A DNA stretch of 64,000 nt, from positions 55-64,054 of the forward strand of contig JAUWCU010000003.1 in assembly GCA_030609135.1 (NCBI GenBank), given 5' to 3'. This stretch comes from Candidatus Stahliibacteriota bacterium (GTDB taxonomy: Bacteria > Hydrothermota > Tepidihabitantia > SM23-42). The notes beneath the pieces were generated by a model that saw only the letters and a list, made by a program, of their open reading frames with translations, was not told where the DNA came from and searched no databases. Below, piece by piece: positions 1 to 47,931 of the stretch. A program made the position numbers and the translations under genes. Numbering within the stretch: the first letter of the stretch is position 1; each line of letters opens with the position of its first letter.

Positions 1-2372
1 GTAGCCGTATACGGGAACCCCGAATGATATGAGATTATGAAATCTGTGGAAAAATCCCTTAGTGGACTGAGATAGAAATCATCAGGGAGCATAATTCCAA
101 CGCTTGAATTTACAATGTGTCGTTCATCAAAATCCAACCAGTAATCAATCCGTGGTAAGGCGTATTCACCAGATATTGGATCCGGACCTCCAACATAAAC
201 ATCATAATAATGCTGCCAGGCATAAGAAGCAGTACCTTTGGCAAATTGCAATGTATAGGACAAATCAAAACGCCAGTAATCCAACATCTTTTTCTTGATA
301 GTAAATTCAATACCTTTTACATTACCGTAGTCAACATTCGTAACCTGATAATAAGGATAAGGCTGGGACAGTACCCTACGTGTTTGAATGAGGTCGTAGA
401 TATCTTTGTAATAAGCAACAAAACCAAAGGCAAAAGCATCAGATATTTGATTCTCATAACCCAATTCATAGGCAATTGTTTTTTCAACTGTAAGGTCAGG
501 ATTGCCAAGGACTGAGTTATATCTATGGAGAAGTAACCAGACAACGACCGGATTGGTTGAACGATAGAGGTTGTGTGCTGTGGGGGTTTGAAAGAAATGC
601 CCATAATTGAACCGTAACTTTGATCTCTCGGTAATAGGCATTGAAAATCCGAGACGGGGAGAAAAACGCCATTTAGCTGGGTATTGAACCATGGTTGTGT
701 CATCCATGTCTGAAGGGTTGTTCAAACCACTTGCCTTTGAATCGAAATAGTCGTAGCGAAGACCGATTCGACAAATAATACCTTCAAAATCTACCCTGTC
801 CTGTAAATAGACGGCTATTTTCAAAGGGTTTTTTTCATAAATGTCCCAGAAAGGGATTCTTGCCCAGGGCAGGTTATTGTCAAACCAGCCCACATTTTGA
901 GACATCAGGCTAACCCCGGATTTAACTTCGTGTATTTTAGCGATTGATTTTGTGATAGAAAAAACTCCTTGATAATCACGGTTATATAAATACCTCCAGA
1001 GCCTATTATCGCCTACAGTATAATAAAAACCGGTTGCTCCAAACGGGTTATTTCTTAAACTTGCAGCATTACGCTTACTCCATTCCTCGTAATAATTCAT
1101 CATGGAATCAACAAGATAAAGTTTTATCAAGGAATCATCTTCCATTTCCATTAACAGTTCAGGAAAGTGGTTGGCTTTAAAAATGTAGTCATCATACCAT
1201 TGCCTGTTCGCAGCTGCTTCTGCTTCGAGATCTCTTACTGCGTAAAACCGGATTGATTTTGTGTAACCCAGTTTCGATTCCAAAACAGTATTCTTTGTTA
1301 ACATATAATTAAACGTCACACTGGCGAGATAATTCTTCAGAGTTTCCGCCGTATTACGTTCAAGATTGTATATGAAGCTGAGATTACCCCAGATGTCTTT
1401 GTAGTGTGCGAACTGTTCACGGGAATAGAATCCGGAAAGAGTAACCTTGCCTTTTGCACCGGGCAGACGATAAGATACTTTTCCACCTAACTTGTAATCA
1501 AACCTTTCAGATTGAATTTTATATTTTGCTGCTTCAAACGCATCAGTTATCAGTGCTTCACCCGAGATAAAATATCTAAAACGGGATTTCTCCAATGCTC
1601 CACCCCCGAGGCTTATCTCATAAAGATTGTATCCATAATTTATTTTATCCGAAGCAAAGACCTCGTCGGTAGTATAACGGAATCTGCCACTTGGTTTCGC
1701 AGAGCCTTCACGCGTTATGATGCTAACGATTCCGGATAGAGCTTCACCGTATTCTGCGTCAAAGCCCCCCGTGGTTATTGCAATTTCTTCAACCGCTTGT
1801 TTATTTATTTTCACTGACTGATGACCATAATGCGGTGCTTTAGTGAGTATTCCATCAACATAATAGGCGATTTCTGTATCCCGACCGCCCCGGACATGAA
1901 TTCCTCTTTCACTGGTTGATACACCTGCCTGCAGGGTGATAATTTCGTTAATATCGCTTATCGGCATCATGTCAATATCGTCACCCGTTATGGTCCTCTG
2001 GGTCTGCGTCTGGGTTTTAATAACCAAGGGTCTTTCCGCGTTAACAACTATTGGTTCCATGGTAATTACTGCGGGGCTCAGCGTAAAATTAACAAAAACT
2101 GTCTGGTCGGAAAAAACAATGGTGTTGGATTTCGACACCGTGTTATAACCCAAATAAGACGCGGTTATTGTATGCATACCCACTGGGACAAAAGGTACGA
2201 TGAATTCGCCCTCCAGATCAGTGGCAGCACCCAATTCTGTTTTTTCAATTACGACGTTCACCCCAACTAAGGCTTCGCCATCTTCATCAATTACTTTTCC
2301 TTTTACTTGTCCTGTATTCGATGCTATTACAAAAGAGAAGATTACACAAACCGCGATAAAACATCTCTTCAT
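1..2372 (-). CDS. TonB-dependent outer-membrane receptor with N-terminal CarboxypepD_reg-like domain; C-terminus lies beyond the window edge
   Basis: Not in ORF track (no stop inside window). Hand translation from ATG at 2372 (GGAGGT 4 nt upstream): MKRCFIAVCVIFSFVIASNTGQVKGKVIDEDGEALVGVNVVIEKTELGAATDLEGEF.., then plug-like ..TITGDDIDMMPISDINEIITLQAGV..IHVRGGRDTE..FDAEYGEALSGIVSIITREG. The same frame was checked open at nt 3-116; the middle was not fully verified. Confidence 0.8.
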   Translation of the reverse strand, partial: MKRCFIAVCVIFSFVIASNTGQVKGKVIDEDGEALVGVNVVIEKTELGAATDLEGEFIVPFVPVGMHTITASYLGYNTVSKSNTIVFSDQTVFVNFTLSPAVITMEPIVVNAERPLVIKTQTQTQRTITGDDIDMMPISDINEIITLQAGVSTSERGIHVRGGRDTEIAYYVDGILTKAPHYGHQSVKINKQAVEEIAITTGGFDAEYGEALSGIVSIITREGSAKPSGRFRYTTDEVFASDKINYGYNLYEISLGGGALEKSRFRYFISGEALITDAFEAAKYKIQSERFDYKLGGKVSYRLPGAKGKVTLSGFYSREQFAHYKDIWGNLSFIYNLERNTAETLKNYLASVTFNYMLTKNTVLESKLGYTKSIRFYAVRDLEAEAAANRQWYDDYIFKANHFPELLMEMEDDSLIKLYLVDSMMNYYEEWSKRNAASLRNNPFGATGFYYTVGDNRLWRYLYNRDYQGVFSITKSIAKIHEVKSGVSLMSQNVGWFDNNLPWARIPFWDIYEKNPLKIAVYLQDRVDFEGIICRIGLRYDYFDSKASGLNNPSDMDDTTMVQYPAKWRFSPRLGFSMPITERSKLRFNYGHFFQTPTAHNLYRSTNPVVVWLLLHRYNSVLGNPDLTVEKTIAYELGYENQISDAFAFGFVAYYKDIYDLIQTRRVLSQPYPYYQVTNVDYGNVKGIEFTIKKKMLDYWRFDLSYTLQFAKGTASYAWQHYYDVYVGGPDPISGEYALPRIDYWLDFDERHIVNSSVGIMLPDDFYLSPLRDFSTDFIISYHSGFPYTA

Positions 2373-2392
2373 ACTTACCTCCAATTATAAAT

Positions 2393-2420
2393 ATATTAAC
2401 AAAAAATATACTTAAGTCAA
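2393..2420 (-). promoter_or_regulatory. sigma70-type promoter of the TonB receptor gene
   Basis: Minus strand reads TTGACT-N16-TAATAT, followed by a 20-nt leader with GGAGGT. Confidence 0.55.
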
Positions 2421-2451
2421 GACCCAATAATCAAACGACCGAGAATTAAAA

Positions 2452-2514
2452 GTAGGGCATTTAAGCCCAGTATATCTCGAAGTTTTGAAGATGTGAGGCT
2501 CAGAACCTCTGAAC
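2452..2514 (+). repeat. 63-nt repeat unit (GTAGGGC hairpin + TTTGAAGATGTGAGGCTCAGAACCTCTGAAC); second copy at 24992..25054
   Basis: Near-identical 3' half in both copies, read by eye. The 5' part is a GTAG-headed hairpin: gtagggcatttaagccc vs gtaggggctttagcccc. Confidence 0.8.
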
Positions 2515-2529
2515 AGATTGTTTAATAGC

Positions 2530-2652
2530 TGTAGTTGTCCAATTCATTGGACTGCCCGATAAATCCCGCAATCCTATTTATAGAATCTTGATACGAAACG
2601 GGATAAATCCCGCAATTCTATTTATAAAATCTTAATACGAAGCGGGATAAAT
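2530..2652 (+). repeat. Composite repeat: GTAG-headed hairpin (tgtagttgtccaattcattggac) followed by two overlapping tandem copies of a 51-nt nested-hairpin unit (2558..2608, 2602..2652)
   Basis: Unit is GATAAATCCCGC-aattctatttatagaatt-ataatacga-aGCGGGATAAAT: outer stem atcccgc/gcgggat, inner stem aattcta/tagaatt. Six copies in the window: 2558, 2602, 8377, 29639, 32243 and 36744 (reverse). Confidence 0.85.
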
Positions 2653-2737
2653 CATCTGTCTGCCTCAGGCTGAGGCGACTACAATTGATTGAATCATAAG
2701 TGATTGGAAGTCACGCTGGCGCTGTGATTGTTAAAAA

Positions 2738-2797
2738 GGGAGAGGGAAAAAGCCTGCTCTGAACCTTGTGCTGAATATCATTTCAGTATTGTTTCAG
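2738..2797 (+). repeat. ~58-nt repeat GGGAGrGrAAAAAGCyTGCyCTGAACCTTGTGCTGAATATCATTTCAGTATTGTTTCAG; inverted copy at 25566..25622
   Basis: The reverse complement of 25566..25622 matches this stretch with a few substitutions. Confidence 0.8.
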
Positions 2798-2838
2798 AGG
2801 TGAGGGATAAAGATGTGTTCAAGTTTCTGTTATTAGTA

Positions 2839-2866
2839 TTGACATAAGAGAAGCGCTAATTATAAT
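2839..2866 (+). promoter_or_regulatory. sigma70-type promoter of the 856-aa hydrolase gene
   Basis: TTGACA (2839)-N16-TATAAT (2861), 14 nt before ATG 2881. A conserved box GGGATAAAGATGTGTTCAAGTTTCT (2804..2828) lies 10 nt upstream of the -35. Confidence 0.65.
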
Positions 2867-2880
2867 CATTATACGGTCAT

Positions 2881-22826: not shown

Positions 22827-24278
22827 CTAATGAATTGTTTCTCGTATCAATTTTGTACTACGGCAGGATTTTCTTTTGATCGTAAATACTGCATGCATTT
22901 GTTTGGCTACAGCCCTTGCTTTTGATCGGTTGTCACAAATGATTTCTATTAAACATTCGCCTTTTTTTACATAATCACCGATTTTTTGGTTGACTTTAAA
23001 TCCACATGATGGGTCGATTTTGTCTTCCTTTTTAAGTCTACCCCCACCCAATTGTACGAGCAACATGCCGATATCAAAAGTATCAATATGATGTATATAC
23101 CCTGTTTGTTGTGCTTTGATTTTAATTCTATTTTTTGCTACTGGTAAACGTGAATAATCATCAATGATACGAACATCACCACCCTGATAATGAATAATCT
23201 CTTTAAATTTATTTAAGGCTTCACGGTTTGCTATCTTTTTCTCAAGGAGGTTTTTCCCGCCTTTAATTTTAGCGAGCTTAAGCATTGCCTTGCCAAGCTC
23301 GAACGTGACTTCCATCAAATCCTTTGGACCACTGCCCTTTAGCGCCTCGATCGTTTCAATAATCTCTAAAGAATTGCCTATATAGTTACCTAATGGATTA
23401 TTCATATCAGTTAGGATGGCGATGACTTTAACTTGGAATCCCCCGTTGCTTGCGGCGTGGGATGAGATATAATACTCCCTCTCCCTTGAGGGAGAGGGTA
23501 GGGGTGAGGGTGAAATTGAAAGTAAGATACCCTGCCCCAAGGGGCAGGGAGCTTCATTCTTTTTGCAACGAGAGTCTCGTTGCACTCCAAAGCGTTTGCC
23601 GATTTGAATCATGGTCCGCGCAAGCTTTTTTGCTTTTTTATAATCAGTCATGAATGCGCCACTGCCAAATTTCACATCGAGCACCAGACCATCGAGATTT
23701 TCAGCAAGTTTCTTAGACATTATGCTTGCGGCAATGAGAGGGATTGAATCAACCGTTGCTGTTACATCGCGCAAGGCATATATTTTTTTGTCAGCGGGCG
23801 CAATTTCTCCGGTTTGTCCAATCATGGCAACGCCAAGTCTTTTTAACTGGCGCTTGAATGCTTTGAGCGTTAGATTAGTACGAAACCCGGGGATTGATTC
23901 TAATTTGTCTAAAGTACCACCTGTATGACCCAGACCGCGACCCGAAATCATGGGCATACAGATACCACATGATGCCATCAAAGGTGCCAGAATAAGTGAT
24001 ACCTTATCACCGACCCCGCCCGTAGAATGCTTGTCGATCTTTGGCTTTTTAATTTCTGAAAGGTTGAGCATCTTTCCAGTGTGCATCATGGCTTGCATCA
24101 AATCAGTGGTTTCGTTAATATCCATACCCTGAAAATATACCGCCATTAAAAAGGCAGCCAGTTGATAGTCAGGGATATTGTGTTTTGTGTATTCAGAAAT
24201 CAGATACTTTATTTCGTGTTCATTTAATTTTTTACCATCACGTTTTTTACGAATAATATCAAGGACGCTAAATTCCAT
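22827..24278 (-). CDS. pdp: pyrimidine-nucleoside (thymidine) phosphorylase carrying a 50-codon in-frame insert
   Basis: KHSTGGVGDKVSL, SGRGLGHTGGTLDKLE, ALRDVTATVDSIPLIAASIMSKK. Start moved to ATG 24278 (MEFSVLDIIRKKRDGKKL..). Confidence 0.9.
   Translation of the reverse strand: MEFSVLDIIRKKRDGKKLNEHEIKYLISEYTKHNIPDYQLAAFLMAVYFQGMDINETTDLMQAMMHTGKMLNLSEIKKPKIDKHSTGGVGDKVSLILAPLMASCGICMPMISGRGLGHTGGTLDKLESIPGFRTNLTLKAFKRQLKRLGVAMIGQTGEIAPADKKIYALRDVTATVDSIPLIAASIMSKKLAENLDGLVLDVKFGSGAFMTDYKKAKKLARTMIQIGKRFGVQRDSRCKKNEAPCPLGQGILLSISPSPLPSPSREREYYISSHAASNGGFQVKVIAILTDMNNPLGNYIGNSLEIIETIEALKGSGPKDLMEVTFELGKAMLKLAKIKGGKNLLEKKIANREALNKFKEIIHYQGGDVRIIDDYSRLPVAKNRIKIKAQQTGYIHHIDTFDIGMLLVQLGGGRLKKEDKIDPSCGFKVNQKIGDYVKKGECLIEIICDNRSKARAVAKQMHAVFTIKRKSCRSTKLIRETIH
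23433..23582. repeat. 150-nt hairpin-repeat insertion inside the pdp reading frame
   Basis: Three hairpins: ccctctcccttgagggagaggg (23477..23498), ccctgccccaaggggcaggg (23530..23549) and tgcaacgagagtctcgttgca (23564..23584). Same module types as the intergenic repeats at 11010 and 25617. Confidence 0.8.
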
Positions 24279-24912: not shown

Positions 24913-25173
24913 TTCATTCCTCGCAATGACAAGGAGAGAGGGGTTCCTCGCAATGACAAGGAGAGATGAGTATTTTCGAATGACGCAAGGAGTAGGGGCT
25001 TTAGCCCCGTCGTATATCGAAGCTTTGAAGATGTGAGGCTCAGAACCTCTGAACTTCTCAACTTCGAGATTGCTTTGGGGCTGCGTGTCTTGCAATGACA
25101 AGAATGGTGGGTATTCTTTGCCCGACCGATGAGTGTGTCATTGCGAGCCTGAACGAAGTTAAGGCGTGGCAAT
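24913..25173. repeat. Repeat cluster between queD and queC
   Basis: Two tandem CCTCGCAATGAC-aaggagaga units, the 63-nt unit at 24992..25054, and GAGATTGC../..GTCATTGCGAGC..GGCAATCT units of the 'gtcattgcga...gaagcaatctc' family. Confidence 0.8.
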
Positions 25174-34026: not shown

Positions 34027-34473
34027 CTGCAAATACGTCTTCAACAATTCAACAGGACTATTGTCATTACGAGTGTAGTCGAGAACCCTCAACATGATTA
34101 TTGTTCCTCTCACCTTGTTCGAGACAGGCGAGCGAAGTTGAGAACTTCCGCAATATGGGTGATGGCCCTAGATAAAAATGTCATTGCGAAGGCGTAGCCT
34201 GAAGCAATCTCACCTCCTTTTGTCAATCAAGCGCGTGAGGGCATAGTATTTGTAGTGGTCGAGTTTACTCGACAAACATCCCTGCACGCTACGGTATTTG
34301 TGCAGAGCAAGCTCTGCCACTACATATGTTGGGGTAGGTCTTTACACGAGCGGGACTCTGTTTCATGTCATTGCGAATCCGCCGCGTCATATAGCGGACA
34401 AAGTCCCGCAATGCAAGGATCCTCGATTTTCATTTATTAGAAATATATAGTACGGAAAATCGGGATAGTCTCA
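34027..34473. repeat. Repeat cluster, including 74-nt REPIN-like copy 1 (34251..34324)
   Basis: TGTAGTGGtcgagtttactcgaCAAACATCCCtgcacgctacggtatttgtgcaGAGCAAGCTCTGCCACTACA. Also a 38-nt unit tctcaccttgttcgagacaggcgagcgaagtYgagaac (34108..34145 = 36681..36718) and gtcattgcgaa..gaagcaatctc units. 34213..34324 is repeated at 36953..37062. Confidence 0.85.
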
Positions 34474-42758: not shown

Positions 42759-45069
42759 ATGAAAAGAGTGGTCATTGGGATATGTGCAATAGTGATAGGG
42801 TTTATGCCCTTGTCCATCTATGGTTCTGAAATTGCAACTGTAACTTTGGAAACCTGGATGAATGCTTCCCAGGGTTTTGAACCAAACCTTGGTCAGATTG
42901 GCGATTTTGAAGGGAATGTGGTTAATAATATCTTGTGCGCTTTCAAGGGTAATGGACTTGGTATATTCATTAATGAAAAAGGGGTAAGTTATGTTATTTA
43001 TCAAGCGGAAAAAATCTTAAGAGATGAGTCCCAGAGAATTGATTTAAGAGAACCTGAAAAAAATCTTATCCACTATGCAAGGATTGATGTGGAGCTTGTG
43101 AATTCCAATTTTGAAAAGTCAAAAATCGTTTATGAAGATGAGCTACCCGGATATGCGCATTATTATTTGCCACAATGTCCTGATGGTATTCTTTATGTGA
43201 AAAGTTTCAGAAAGGTGCGGATTAAAGAGATATATCCGGGCGTTGACTGGATATGGAAATATGAAGATGGACGGTTGCATCATGAATTTGAGGTCAAACC
43301 TGCGTCTGATGTTTCAAAGATAAAGATGAAGGTTAAATGGGCTGATGTTGAGATAAGCGAAAATGGTAGAAAACTTATATATTCTACGCCACTTGGTAAG
43401 ATAAAAGATGGAAATATACTTGGTTATGAAAATCCGAAATCCAAAATCCGAAATCCGAGACCGATTGATATTTCTTATATAAAAAATGAAGATGGGATAA
43501 TTTCCTTTGAAATAAAGAATTATTCCGGTAAAAATCCTCTAATTATTGACCCACCCCTTGCACTATTATGGGGGACATATTACGGAGGCAATGATCCTGA
43601 TCGTGGCTATTCAATTACAACCGATAATTCAGGTAATATTTTTGTAACTGGGACCACTTATTCAACAGAATTTTCCCACACAAGACCCCGGTGGTGGTGC
43701 TTATTATCAAGGTACAAAAGCAGGATATTTTGATGTATTTGTTTTAAAGTTTACAAATACAGGGGTTCGGCTTTGGGCGACATATTACGGAGGAAATGAC
43801 AGAGATGGGGGCGCTTCAATTATAACTGACAATTCAGGTAATGTTTTTGTAGGTGGAACCACCTATTCAACAGATTTTGCCACACAGGACCCTGGCGGTG
43901 GTGCTTATTATCAAGGAACATTTGCAGGTGTTGGTGATGCATTTATTTTGAAGTTTACAAATGTTGGTATTCGCCTCTGGGCAACATATTACGGCGGAAA
44001 TGATAGTGATATGGTGTGTTCGATTACCACTGATAATTCAGGTAATGTTTTTATAACTGGGTGGACTCTTTCAACAGATTTTCCCATACAGGACCCTGGC
44101 GGTGGTGCCTATTATCAGGGAGCAAATGCAGGTTATAGAGATGCATTTATTTTGAAGTTTACAAATACGGGTGTTCGTCAATGGGCAACGTATTACGGAG
44201 GAAATGCTGGTGATTGGTGCAATTCAATTACAGCGGATAGTTCAGGTAATGTTTTTATAGCCGGATACACCTATTCAACAAATTTCCCCACATATGACCC
44301 CGGGGGAGGTGCTTATTATCAGGAAACACTTGGAGGTGTTCATGATGCATTTATTTTGAAGTTTACAAATACCGGTGTTCGGCAAAGGGCGACATATTAC
44401 GGCGGAAATAATGAGGATATGTGTAATTCAGTTACAACTGATGCTTCAGGTAATATTTTTGTGACTGGATACACTTTTTCACCAGATTTTCCCACATATG
44501 ACCCCGGGGGAGGTGCTTATTATCAGGGAGCACTTGCAGGCGGATATGATGCATTTGTCTTGAAGTTTACAAATAGCGGTATTCGCCAATGGGCAACGTA
44601 TTACGGAGGAAATGATGTGGATTGTGGCTTTTCAATTAAAACCGATAATTCAGGTAATGTTTTTGTAACTGGACTAACTGTTTCAACAAATTTCCCAACA
44701 CAGGACCCTGGCGGTGGTGCTTATTATCAGGGGACACATGCAGGTGTTGGTGATGTATTTCTTTTGAAGTTTGAAACTTCACTGGGAATTGTAGAGGAAA
44801 ATACTAAAAAGAATGAGCCTTCGGTTCTAATTATTTCTTCTATCTTTATCAACAGAATACGAATAGACCTTTCATTATCTTCTAAAAAACCCATGGCTCT
44901 TATCCTTTATAATTTATTGGGGCAGAAAATCTTTTCAAGGTCTTATCCTGAAACTAAGTCTCTTATTATAAGAGGCAGAGAGATTGAAGAATTGAGTAAA
45001 GGAATATATTTCTTATCTGTCTATTCAGGAAAAAAAGAGATTGGCAGGGTTAAGCTGATAAAGAGATAA
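42759..45069 (+). pseudogene. SBBP beta-propeller-repeat surface protein with T9SS-type C-terminal sorting domain, interrupted by a 1-nt frameshift near 43668-43670
   Basis: Track ORFs 42717..43733 and 43948..45069 are one gene. Frame +1 from 43669 reads [42 protein letters not shown].., continuing the repeat. Start at ATG 42759 (AAGGAGG; signal MKRVVIGICAIVIGFMPLSIYG). The tail is ..[22 protein letters not shown]. Confidence 0.75.
43569..44780 (+). repeat. Six tandem 204-nt (68-codon) coding repeats (SBBP modules)
   Basis: W/R of (W)ATYYGGN falls at 43569, 43774, 43978, 44182, 44386 and 44590. The extra nucleotide in the first interval is the frameshift. Long stretches look near-identical at DNA level between modules. 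Confidence 0.85.
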
Positions 45070-45126: not shown

Positions 45127-47931
45127 ATGGGGCGATTTAAGGTAATTCTTATCGTGATTGTAATCTATTTAATGGCTCAGATTGTTTTTGCTGAGCCCAC
45201 CGCAAAGACTTATATCTTTGCCGCATCCCAATATATGTTTTACCATCCCTGGTATGGTGGAAACCCTCTGGATTCGCTTTGCAAACACTTTGATGTGATT
45301 ATCTTTCATGACTGGAATAGGGATACAATCCCTACGATTCGGGATAGCACAAAAGTAGAATGGCGTAGAAATAATGCGCCAATACTTTTATTGTATAAAG
45401 ATGCAATGACTATATGTGGTCCAGGTCGTCCCTGGCATCCTGAACCAGACCCGACAATTGGTGGTCGTGAAACTGTTGGTGGGTATAATCATTTTGATTC
45501 GTTATTAAAGCAAAATTACCCGTCAGATACTTTCTTTATGTTAGCGACGACCGTAGGTTCTCAGCAAACTTCCCATTATGATACCATCGTTATCGGTAAT
45601 GATACTCTGCATCGTGTCAAGGCTGGTAGTGATCCCTCCTGGCAGTGGCGCTGGGCAATGGCATACGGTGAGTCATACTGGCGGAATTTTTATGCCTGCA
45701 CCACCAAGGTGCAATGCCTGCGGAATTATGCAGACACAACTTATGATGATACCTATTTTGACGGTGTACTCATTGATAATTTGTTACCCTTAAGAAGTCT
45801 GCATGGCTTATATCCACAACAATATCCCGACAATAACAGTTTTAGAGAGGCGGTTTATTCTTTCACCCAGACCGCCTGCTCTGAATATCATAATCTTACA
45901 TCACCTCCGGGTAATCCCCGTTCAATTCTTGGTACTGGCAATTTGAACTATATTTACTTAACACCTCTAAGTGATACAGTATGGAAAAAGCTTCTCCATA
46001 TTTTAGATGGCGGTATGGAGGAAGGCTCAGATGGCTTACACAGATTGTCTTTTAATGACTGGCATAGAATTATGCAGGAAATTGCAATGGCTGAATCTTT
46101 AGGTAAGATATCTTTTATACGTGAGGCAGTTGACTCATGCGAATACGATACAATTATCAATCCCTTTGGATTACTTTCGTTTAGTTCTACAAATCTGATG
46201 TTTGGTTTTACAAGTTATCTTATGGTCTTTGATTCTATGGCGCACTTCTATTTTTGTCCACGGGAAGGTCCGCATTACGCGTTTATCTGCTGGGCGCCAG
46301 TCTTAGATATTGATATTGGTAAGCCAATGGGGCGGTACATCCTGACCGCAGACACCCTCGCATATCGTTATTATGAAGGTGCAGCAGTATTTGCCAATCC
46401 GTGCAGTCTTTCATCAGTAACTGCAGGTTTCCCCGGTGATACTTTGTTGTTCATAAAGACAGCATCCTGCACAGTGGATGTTACAATTGACCAGTTAATA
46501 CTTCCTTCTCATACAGGGGTAATTGGACTTTATCCATTAAACTATTTCCAGGCAAGCGGTTTTGAGCCTGATGACCGTTTGTGCTGGGAGAACTACTGTC
46601 TTGAGGTTGAGGGGGTTACAAATTGCTATGCAAAAAGAGTGCAGGGTATTCCGCCAAACGGTGTGACACCACATTCCGGTCAATGGATGTATAAGGTTTA
46701 TGGTCAGGATGAGAGCACTGATACAAGTTTTGTCAGCTTCAAGGTCTTTCCGTACGATGTGCTGATTGAAGATCCCACTTATCTGTCTTTCTGGATATAT
46801 GTTGAAGATGCACCCGGCGATTCAGCACCGATTGGTATAGACTGTCTACTAAAGAGCGGCAAGCGGTTGAGTGAGTGGACAAAATTTGGCACGATTTTAG
46901 ACCAGTATGGTAAAGAAATAAATCCCGCTGACCGCCGTGTGCCCGAAGGTGCGTGGTATCAATATGTGTTTACATTTAACCCGGCAGTCAACGAAACGAT
47001 TGACCACATTGAGTTGGTTTATGATGGCTCGCAGATTTCAGAGACCGGCGATTTTTGTGCGTATATTGATGATATAGAGATACTAACTCAATTCCCGATA
47101 CTCGATACCTGGTATGCGGAGAAGTTTCCGGTTGGCAGTCCCATCAATAATCCTAACAATTATGACCCGAACTTCTATATGAACTTCATTGCTCAAGGCG
47201 ATTCTGTTAGATTGATTATCAATCCACAGGGTGATGGTGGTGAGGGTGCGCACTGGGTTAACCCGGCGCCAGGGATTAGAAACAACATTACTGATATTTC
47301 TGTTGATTCATTCACAACAGTCATCTGGAGTCAGTATGATAAGGCACACAGTCTGATTCTTTCGCTATTTGTCCATGATAACCAGGAGAATAACCGATGG
47401 CTTATGTATGCAAAGAATGCGAGCAATTGGTGGCCACAAACCGGCTGGGTTGATATGGGAGATACGGCGAGGCATTATAATATGTGGGAAGGGTTTTTTA
47501 GGAACATTAGAGATGATTATACTGCGGAATACGGCGGTGAAGTTGAACCCGAATCTATCATAGAGTTGAGACTGGAGCACTTTGCCCGGTCAGAATGGGT
47601 TGGTGATTCCGGTGGGACAATCAGGAATCTTTTCATCGTGCCCTTCACCCAGGAATTTACCATAAATCAAAATCAGACCTATACCAATATGCCATATGTA
47701 GCACTGAGGACCAAAGTGACTTCTGAGATTGTGGACTCAATGAATATCCATCAGGATTATAGCGATTCGCTTACGGATTCTACTGGCTGGATTGCCTATG
47801 ATACTTCCTATTGCTGGTATCTGCGAGAGGGAGAAGGAAACAACACAGTTTATATTCAATACAAGGTTGGTGGTTTCAGCGAGAGTCCGGTCTATTGCGA
47901 TACCATCATCTTTGATAAAACTTTGACTTGA
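45127..47931 (+). CDS. 934-aa secreted protein; N-terminal half possibly a GH114/GHL-type TIM-barrel glycoside-hydrolase-like domain, C-terminal half unknown
   Basis: Signal peptide MGRFKVILIVIVIYLMAQIVFA (GGAGG upstream). The YFDGVLIDN motif and polysaccharide-locus context are the only basis for the hydrolase guess. Confidence 0.35.
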   Translation: MGRFKVILIVIVIYLMAQIVFAEPTAKTYIFAASQYMFYHPWYGGNPLDSLCKHFDVIIFHDWNRDTIPTIRDSTKVEWRRNNAPILLLYKDAMTICGPGRPWHPEPDPTIGGRETVGGYNHFDSLLKQNYPSDTFFMLATTVGSQQTSHYDTIVIGNDTLHRVKAGSDPSWQWRWAMAYGESYWRNFYACTTKVQCLRNYADTTYDDTYFDGVLIDNLLPLRSLHGLYPQQYPDNNSFREAVYSFTQTACSEYHNLTSPPGNPRSILGTGNLNYIYLTPLSDTVWKKLLHILDGGMEEGSDGLHRLSFNDWHRIMQEIAMAESLGKISFIREAVDSCEYDTIINPFGLLSFSSTNLMFGFTSYLMVFDSMAHFYFCPREGPHYAFICWAPVLDIDIGKPMGRYILTADTLAYRYYEGAAVFANPCSLSSVTAGFPGDTLLFIKTASCTVDVTIDQLILPSHTGVIGLYPLNYFQASGFEPDDRLCWENYCLEVEGVTNCYAKRVQGIPPNGVTPHSGQWMYKVYGQDESTDTSFVSFKVFPYDVLIEDPTYLSFWIYVEDAPGDSAPIGIDCLLKSGKRLSEWTKFGTILDQYGKEINPADRRVPEGAWYQYVFTFNPAVNETIDHIELVYDGSQISETGDFCAYIDDIEILTQFPILDTWYAEKFPVGSPINNPNNYDPNFYMNFIAQGDSVRLIINPQGDGGEGAHWVNPAPGIRNNITDISVDSFTTVIWSQYDKAHSLILSLFVHDNQENNRWLMYAKNASNWWPQTGWVDMGDTARHYNMWEGFFRNIRDDYTAEYGGEVEPESIIELRLEHFARSEWVGDSGGTIRNLFIVPFTQEFTINQNQTYTNMPYVALRTKVTSEIVDSMNIHQDYSDSLTDSTGWIAYDTSYCWYLREGEGNNTVYIQYKVGGFSESPVYCDTIIFDKTLT

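What the first reader, a model, noticed from the sequence alone, without database searches (positions are those of the whole stretch)
43660..43680. Single-nucleotide frameshift splits a ~770-aa SBBP-repeat surface protein
The upstream frame reads ..[28 protein letters not shown]. Shifting +1 at 43669 restores the repeat consensus [42 protein letters not shown], and that frame then stays open to 45069. Other modules have tca aca gat/aat ttt/ttc ccc, whereas this one has tcaacagaattttccc, which carries one extra base next to a T4 run. The cause could be a true pseudogene, a sequencing or assembly error in a highly repetitive gene, or a slippage-type expression switch.
Basis: seen in the sequence. 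Interest (0 to 1): 0.5.

Follow-up and report, generated by a model that had tools for sequence, protein, structure and literature searches.

The report
Real one-base frameshift in surface-protein gene
One extra base splits a gene for a secreted beta-propeller surface protein in an uncultivated WOR-3-like bacterium; the same extra base is in separate assemblies, so it is most likely a recent gene-killing mutation, which is ordinary.

Summary
A roughly 769-aa gene (ATG 42759 to stop 45069) has a signal peptide, a DUF7948 domain, six 68-aa SBBP modules and a T9SS sorting tail. One extra base at 43669/43670 (GAATTTT, where sister modules have GATTTT) breaks it. Module 1 is 205 bp and the other full modules are 204 bp. 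Frame 0 stops at 43733; frame +1 stays open to 45069.

Assembly error is unlikely. Two Logan contigs are 100% identical across the site. A JGI contig carries the same extra base but differs elsewhere by one SNP and a poly-G length. All k-mers of 15 nt or more across the site are unique in the window.

The frameshift is not conserved. The closest ortholog (73% identity, syntenic) is intact, and 159 of 161 related loci read on in one frame. The tract (A2/T4) is too short for slippage switching. No feature that promotes +1 recoding is present, although a perfect UUU-to-UUU +1 slip is geometrically possible.

Best reading: a recent, real pseudogenising insertion in a fast-evolving paralogous family of surface proteins. 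It is ordinary.

Side observations: a 7-nt tandem repeat inside the coding region is conserved in three orthologous lineages, and a poly-G tract upstream differs in length (G9 versus G11) between assemblies.

The parts
42659..42687 (+). Promoter-like site TTGACA-17-TATAAT (12 of 12 consensus positions), about 72 bp upstream of the start codon
   Evidence: This is a consensus match only; function was not tested.
42748..42761 (+). Shine-Dalgarno-like AAGGAGG (42748-42754) and the ATG start codon (42759-42761)
   Evidence: Sequence. The ortholog L003 has GGAGGAAATATG at the same place. Independent gene calls on the Logan contigs use this start.
42759..43733 (+). Upstream fragment of 324 aa. It holds a Sec-type signal peptide (MKRVVIGICAIVIGFMPLSIYGS), DUF7948 at residues 40-265, the first half of SBBP module 1, and an out-of-frame tail ending at the premature stop 43731-43733.
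   Evidence: PF25778 E=6.5e-38; PF06739 E=9.9e-8. The signal peptide was judged by eye.
43669..43670 (+). AA dinucleotide that carries the extra base. The +1 insertion can be placed anywhere in 43668-43674, GAATTTT.
   Evidence: Module 1 is 205 bp and modules 2-5 are 204 bp. Modules 2, 3 and 5 have GATTTT here.
43674..43733 (+). Out-of-frame tail [19 protein letters not shown] plus the stop codon
43671..45069 (+). Downstream part of the gene in frame +1 (open from 43648). It holds the rest of module 1, modules 2-6 and the C-terminal domain. There is no ATG, GTG or TTG before 43948, and no signal peptide.
   Evidence: SBBP in 5 stretches, E=6.1e-37.
43578..44789 (+). Array of six SBBP modules of 204 bp (68 aa), about 80% identical to each other at the DNA level
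   Evidence: TRF period 204, 5.9 copies, score 1297.
44872..45069 (+). T9SS type A C-terminal sorting domain (residues 705-769 of the repaired protein) plus the stop codon
   Evidence: TIGR04183 24.5 bits, cutoff 23. (PF18962 20.3 bits, below its cutoff of 27).

Best explanation
This is a genuine one-base insertion: an extra A at 43669/43670 in the first SBBP module. It has recently inactivated a gene for a T9SS-exported surface protein in an uncultivated bacterium related to candidate division WOR-3.

The intact protein would have a signal peptide, DUF7948, a six-module SBBP beta-propeller and a T9SS C-terminal sorting domain. Translation from the intact promoter, RBS and ATG at 42759 now ends at 43733. 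The product is a 324-aa fragment that keeps the signal peptide and DUF7948 but lacks the propeller and the T9SS sorting tail. By inference it cannot be exported or anchored by the T9SS.

The downstream 1.4 kb is still an open frame only because the lesion is young.

**Shown:** the insertion, its presence in separate assemblies, and its absence from orthologs.

**Inferred:** loss of function, and recency.
For: **The anatomy is as described.** Searches show the split and the single extra base.

**The extra base is reproducible.**
- Logan contigs from SRR14876856 and SRR14923480 (the latter reported in 3 samples) are 100% identical to window 41762/41834..43911 and encode the same 324-aa truncated product.
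- JGI 3300040951 contig Ga0451374_47983 is 99.9% identical over 2872 bp. It has the same extra base but differs by a SNP at 42070 and by G11 versus G9 at 42579. It is therefore a separate assembly of a slightly different population.

**Repeat-driven misassembly is unlikely.** All k-mers of 15 nt or more across the site are unique in the window. The longest exact repeat of any piece of 43640-43700 elsewhere is 12 bp.

**Orthologs are intact.**
- P0001 (838 aa, 73% identity, about 80% DNA identity, with the same downstream neighbour gene) reads STVFPTHDPGGG straight through.
- 159 of 161 related loci stay open for at least 150 aa past the homologous point, or to the contig end.

**No intact near-identical allele is in the protein database**.

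**The lesion looks recent, with a hint of early decay.**
- dN/dS against the ortholog is 0.28 before the shift and 0.37 after it.
- One Trp that is W in 902 of 914 homologous modules is Arg in module 5, downstream of the shift.

**The locus shows other gene decay.** The ORF just upstream (41679..42578) is a truncated paralog of the gene just downstream.
Against: - No reads were inspected, so a minor intact allele in the population cannot be excluded.
- All carriers are one near-clonal population (99.9-100% identity). They may come from a single project, so they are independent as libraries and assemblies but not as lineages.
- The gene keeps a perfect promoter, RBS and signal peptide, and a 466-codon open downstream frame with dN/dS well below 1. 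That also fits a gene that is still expressed in some way.
- The six-module array itself is supported only by the window's assembly; no other contig spans it.
Confidence: 0.72

Rival explanations
1. The extra base is real, but full-length protein is still made by +1 ribosomal frameshifting. With GAA-UUU in the E and P sites, tRNA-Phe slips from UUU (43671-73) to UUU (43672-74). CCC is then read next, giving ...[15 protein letters not shown]... This could be a low-level leak or a set expression level.
For: The geometry is exact. The U4 run allows perfect re-pairing, and the resulting peptide [12 protein letters not shown] fits the module consensus. The zero-frame A-site codon UCC is one of the less used Ser codons (10% of Ser, 6 per 1000). 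The promoter, RBS and downstream frame are intact.
Against: The shift is not conserved in any relative, which is the main hallmark of programmed recoding. There is no stop or truly rare codon in the A site. There is no Shine-Dalgarno-like stimulator just upstream; the nearest purine-rich match, GGGA, lies about 20 nt away. From general knowledge, spontaneous +1 slippage on such sites is of the order of 1% or less.
Confidence: 0.07
2. The extra base is a sequencing or assembly artefact, and the true gene is intact.
For: The gene is repetitive. Split SBBP genes with out-of-frame tails are common in other MAGs, for example P0137 and P0185 on one contig, P0172, P0167 and P0198, so this family is often fragmented in assemblies. 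The carriers may share a sampling project and a sequencing platform.
Against: The same base appears in contigs made by different assemblers from different runs and samples. The site is unique at k of 15 or more and the modules are only about 80% identical. A 1-bp insertion at consensus level in an A2/T4 context is not a typical short-read error (general knowledge). The rest of the window has long uninterrupted ORFs.
Confidence: 0.1
3. The frameshift is the OFF state of a reversible phase-variation (contingency) locus, or the truncated 324-aa DUF7948 fragment is itself the selected product.
For: It is a surface-protein gene. A heptanucleotide tandem repeat sits inside the coding region and recurs at the same position in three orthologous lineages. 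A poly-G tract upstream is G9 in the window and G11 in the JGI contig.
Against: The frameshift itself is in an A2/T4 context, far below the tract lengths that slip at high rates (general knowledge). The four assemblies show no length variation at the site or in the 7-nt repeat. Removing one 7-nt unit cannot rescue the frame, because frame +1 has several stops between 43459 and 43669. A poly-G length difference between assemblies is a known weak spot of short-read data.
Confidence: 0.08

Closest known systems
DUF7948 + SBBP-repeat + T9SS C-terminal-domain proteins of candidate division WOR-3, Hydrothermia, Kryptonia, Ignavibacteria and Bacteroidota ('SBBP repeat-containing protein')
   Same: Same architecture and high similarity. 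There are 6772 hits; the top hits are 57-73% identical and mostly about 770-870 aa. The signal peptide and C-terminal tail are nearly identical to P0001.
   Different: This copy carries a 1-bp insertion in module 1 and has six modules, where the closest ortholog has seven.
Leptospira LipL53-family SBBP beta-propeller lipoprotein (NCBIfam NF047494)
   Same: Shares the SBBP repeat region (106.8 bits over residues 289-504).
   Different: The score is far below the family cutoff of 400. The window protein has no lipobox, has a different N-terminal domain and has a T9SS tail, so it is not a member.
prfB-type programmed +1 ribosomal frameshift
   Same: A +1 shift on a codon whose tRNA can re-pair one base downstream (here UUU_U; CUU_U in prfB).
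   Different: There is no A-site stop codon and no upstream SD-like stimulator. The shift is not conserved in orthologs.
Simple-sequence contingency loci (slipped-strand phase variation of surface proteins, as in Neisseria, Haemophilus and Campylobacter)
   Same: It is a surface-protein gene with a frame-disrupting indel. The same gene holds a 7-nt coding repeat, and a poly-G tract lies upstream.
   Different: The indel is not in a long repeat tract, and no length polymorphism was seen at the site among assemblies.

Membership tests
SBBP beta-propeller repeat proteins (Pfam PF06739) | Repeated matches to the SBBP profile above the gathering score | tested here: met
   125.7 bits (cutoff 20.5) in 5 stretches downstream of the shift, and 32.3 bits upstream of it.
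DUF7948-containing proteins (Pfam PF25778) | Full-length match to the DUF7948 profile | tested here: met
   131.4 bits, profile positions 1-213 of 214, residues 40-265.
T9SS type A cargo | C-terminal sorting domain (TIGR04183 / PF18962) at the extreme C-terminus | tested here: met
   TIGR04183 24.5 bits against a cutoff of 23, at residues 705-769 of 769. PF18962 scores only 20.3 against 27. The tail is about 85% identical to that of ortholog P0001.
T9SS type A cargo | N-terminal Sec signal peptide, and a T9SS machinery in the same genome | not tested
   The signal peptide was judged by eye only (MKRVVIGICAIVIGFMPLSIYGS). The T9SS core genes were not searched for, and only 64 kb of the genome is available.
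Programmed +1 ribosomal frameshift (prfB-like recoding) | The frameshift is conserved at the same site in orthologs | tested here: not met
   the closest ortholog is intact, and 159 of 161 related loci continue in one frame.
Programmed +1 ribosomal frameshift (prfB-like recoding) | Slippery P-site codon together with a slow A-site codon (stop or rare) and an upstream SD-like stimulator | tested here: not met
   The slippery UUU_U is present. The A-site codon UCC is 6 per 1000 codons, which is not rare. There is no SD-like motif within about 10 nt upstream.
Slipped-strand phase-variable (contingency) gene | The indel lies in a homopolymer or short tandem repeat long enough to slip (roughly 7 units or more) | tested here: not met
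   The site is A2 next to T4.
Slipped-strand phase-variable (contingency) gene | Tract-length polymorphism within or between populations | tested here: inconclusive
   No variation was seen at 43669-43674 or at the 7-nt repeat in four assemblies. The upstream poly-G is G9 in the window and G11 in the JGI contig. Read-level data are not available.
Pseudogene by frameshift | A frame disruption relative to intact orthologs that is real in the DNA | tested here: met
   Searches show the disruption. Searches show it in separate assemblies.
Pseudogene by frameshift | Loss of expression or function of the full-length product | not testable with these tools
   This needs transcriptomics or proteomics.

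The most novel reading that the evidence does not exclude
The gene belongs to a small clade of WOR-3-like SBBP surface proteins that behave as contingency loci. An actively turning-over heptanucleotide repeat lies inside the coding region, with different units in each lineage: AAATCCG x4 in the window, AAATCGT x5 in L003 and ATTCCGC x4 in L085, all at the same codon position. A poly-G tract upstream of the promoter varies in length. On this reading the 43669 frameshift is one more OFF state, possibly leaky through a UUU_U +1 slip. It would be stochastic surface-protein switching in an uncultivated phylum where none has been described.
Probability: 0.06. Interest if true: 0.5.

Novelty: new member of a known kind. 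Interest (0 to 1): 0.15.

Why it matters
It matters little beyond annotation. The two ORFs (324 aa, and the 352/373-aa fragment) should be annotated as one frameshifted pseudogene of an SBBP/DUF7948 T9SS cargo protein, not as two hypothetical proteins.

The case also shows that checking other public assemblies can separate a real frameshift from an assembly error when reads are not to hand. The side observation of a conserved 7-nt coding repeat may be worth a look by anyone studying surface variation in WOR-3 and related lineages.

Tried and rejected
- **Metagenome pattern scan.** An exact-pattern scan of metagenome contigs for the site with one or two bases between ACAG and TTTT found nothing. 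No intact or variant allele could be recovered that way.
- **Exact look-ups.** The downstream fragment (373 aa and 352 aa versions) and the 934-aa neighbour were not on record. No extra contigs spanning the array were obtained.
- **Literature search.** A search for the run and metagenome accessions gave 0 papers, so the sample origin is unknown. A search on SBBP, T9SS and WOR-3 gave nothing relevant.
- **First conservation test.** It asked whether a tblastn HSP spans the site. It was invalid, because HSPs ran through the short out-of-frame tail even in the frameshifted contigs. It was replaced by an open-frame extension test.
- **Frame rescue by the 7-nt repeat.** Losing one 7-nt unit cannot restore the frame, because frame +1 has several stops between 43459 and 43669.
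- **Other suspected frameshifts in the window.** The epimerase ORF at 39416 and the overlapping pair at 24268/22827 turned out to be single intact frames.
- **Genome and metagenome searches for relatives.** Nothing came closer than 68-74% identity. The species is not represented there apart from the contigs already found by exact protein look-up.

Full report
**1. The observation**

- The frame of the ATG at 42759 reads ...[32 protein letters not shown] and stops at 43731-43733.
- The +1 frame reads ...[42 protein letters not shown]... It is open from 43648 to the stop at 45067-45069.

The repeat modules start at 43578, 43783, 43987, 44191, 44395 and 44599. Module 1 is 205 bp and modules 2-5 are 204 bp (TRF period 204).

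A MAFFT alignment of the six modules needs one single-column gap. It falls opposite an A of module 1 at window position 43669: GAATTTTCCC, against GATTTTCCC or GATTTTGCC in modules 2, 3 and 5. Deleting that base gives a 769-aa ORF without internal stops. The indel can be placed anywhere in 43668-43674 with an equally sensible protein (STDFP, STNFP or STEFP).

**2. What the gene is**

- The upstream part has a hydrophobic N-terminus typical of a Sec signal peptide (judged by eye) and a full-length DUF7948 domain (PF25778, E=6.5e-38).
- Both parts carry SBBP beta-propeller repeats (PF06739).
- The last 65 residues match the T9SS type A sorting domain. TIGR04183 scores 24.5 bits against a cutoff of 23. 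PF18962 is below its cutoff.
- The gene has a 12/12 sigma-70-like promoter match at 42659-42687 and AAGGAGG five bases before the ATG.

The best are proteins with the same architecture, mostly about 770-870 aa long. Where a source names them, most come from candidate division WOR-3 or Hydrothermia MAGs.

The closest is P0001 (838 aa, 73% identity, with near-identical signal peptide and C-terminal tail). It lies on an 84-kb JGI contig that is about 80% identical at the DNA level and has the same large downstream neighbour gene. I treat it as an ortholog from a related species. It is intact and has seven modules.

The window's neighbours are polysaccharide and surface-related genes: epimerases, a methyltransferase and a GT4 glycosyltransferase.

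**3. Is the extra base real?**

The exact 324-aa truncated product is on record from other assemblies.
- Two Logan contigs, assembled from SRR14876856 and SRR14923480, are 100% identical to window 41762/41834..43911. The tool reports the SRR14923480 contig in 3 samples.
- A 338-aa version (the same ORF called from the upstream TTG) is on JGI metagenome 3300040951 contig Ga0451374_47983.
- That JGI contig aligns over 2872 bp at 99.9%. It has the same AA at the site, but a SNP at 42070 and G11 instead of G9 at 42579-42587. It is therefore not a copy of the same assembly.

All k-mers of 15-31 nt across the site are unique in the window. No piece of 43640-43700 longer than 12 bp recurs elsewhere. 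The modules are about 80% identical, so a repeat-induced misjoin is not a plausible source.

A consensus-level 1-bp insertion in an A2/T4 context, repeated in several libraries, is not a typical short-read artefact (general knowledge). I could not inspect reads. The carriers are one near-clonal population, so this shows that the base is real in that population. It does not show that the base is fixed in the species.

**4. Is it programmed or a switch?**

The closest ortholog reads straight through.

For 161 related loci from genome and metagenome collections, I extended the frame of the DUF7948/first-module match past the homologous point. In 159 loci it stays open for at least 150 aa or to the contig end. 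The two exceptions end 126-133 aa later, elsewhere in the gene. A first version of this test was invalid and was discarded.

A second database search with a query centred on the junction found no near-identical intact allele.

For recoding, a +1 slip of tRNA-Phe on U4 (UUU 43671-73 to UUU 43672-74) would give [12 protein letters not shown], so the geometry is perfect. The usual promoting features are missing:
- the A-site codon UCC is only moderately infrequent (10% of Ser, 6 per 1000);
- there is no stop codon there;
- there is no SD-like element just upstream.

For slipped-strand switching, the tract is far too short. I therefore rate both readings as low.

**5. Age and consequences**

dN/dS against the ortholog is 0.28 before the shift and 0.37 after it. 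The downstream part has been under purifying selection for most of the divergence time, which means the lesion is recent.

One possible sign of early decay: the Trp of the W[AG]TYYGG motif is W in 902 of 914 modules of about 197 homologs, but it is Arg in module 5, downstream of the shift.

The consequences are inferred.
- The 324-aa product keeps the signal peptide and DUF7948 but lacks the propeller and the T9SS tail.
- The downstream frame has no start codon before 43948 and no signal peptide.

The locus shows other decay. ORF 41679..42578 is a truncated paralog of the downstream 934-aa gene. It covers residues 138-395 and contains a 41-aa identical patch.

**6. Context in the family**

Short SBBP proteins with out-of-frame tails occur on long contigs of other MAGs. 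Examples are P0137 and P0185 on one 160-kb contig, P0172, P0167 and P0198. The breaks fall at different positions within the module. Fragmentation of this family is therefore common in assemblies, through real mutation or through error. It is not tied to one conserved site.

**7. Verdict**

The alternatives are an artefact (about 0.1), leaky or programmed +1 recoding (about 0.07), and a phase-variation OFF state or functional truncation (about 0.08).

This is an ordinary event in a known protein family, so interest is low. The conserved heptanucleotide coding repeat and the variable poly-G tract are recorded as side observations. They keep a small probability alive for a contingency-locus reading.

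Noticed in passing
window 43430-43458; L003 867-901; L085 4676-4703: A heptanucleotide tandem repeat lies inside the DUF7948 coding region: (AAATCCG)x4.1 in the window. The same codon position holds (AAATCGT)x5 in ortholog L003 and (ATTCCGC)x4 in L085. More distant relatives lack this 7-aa insert. The unit length is not a multiple of 3, so a one-unit change would shift the frame. No copy-number variation was seen among the window, L001, L002 and L164.
   Followed up: partly
window 42579-42587: This is the only run of 8 or more G in the window (G9). It follows directly after the stop of the upstream remnant ORF and lies 72 bp upstream of the -35 of the SBBP gene's promoter-like site. The otherwise 99.9%-identical JGI contig L164 has G11 here. 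It could be a real length polymorphism or short-read noise at poly-G.
   Followed up: partly
window 41679-42578 versus 45127-47931: The 299-aa ORF just upstream of the SBBP gene is a truncated paralog of the 934-aa gene just downstream. It aligns to residues 138-395 at 48% identity and lacks the N-terminal 137 aa and the C-terminal roughly 540 aa. It contains a 41-aa identical patch (139 bp at 94% DNA identity), which suggests gene conversion. Neither protein matches Pfam or NCBIfam in the scans run here, although the L003 counterpart carries a weak GHL15 hit.
   Followed up: partly
window 39416-40618 (especially 39630-39667); also 24919-24957, 25137-25148 and 34180-34191: A short dispersed element containing GTCATTGCGAGG occurs 6 times with at most 1 mismatch, against 0.15 expected. 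Two copies lie inside an NAD-dependent epimerase ORF. Judged by eye against a typical epimerase, that ORF seems to carry about three in-frame insertions, one of which reads ...SSSVIARNPEFVEGDEAISPN... A 27-bp tandem pair sits at 24917-24971, upstream of a QueC-like gene identified by eye.
   Followed up: partly
window 704-2880: This 2.2-kb stretch has no ORF of 100 aa or more and no Rfam match. It contains a 44-bp tandem repeat (2.2 copies) at 2558-2653. Its nature is unknown.
   Followed up: no
proteins P0137 and P0185 (same 160,571-bp contig), P0172, P0167 and P0198: Other MAGs carry SBBP-repeat genes broken into pieces with out-of-frame tails. The breaks fall at various positions of the 68-aa module. 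Split genes are therefore frequent in this family in public assemblies.
   Followed up: partly
window 43578-44789 versus L003: The window's gene has six 68-aa modules, whereas the closest ortholog has seven. This could be a real in-frame loss of one blade or a collapsed repeat in the assembly. No other contig spans the whole array.
   Followed up: no
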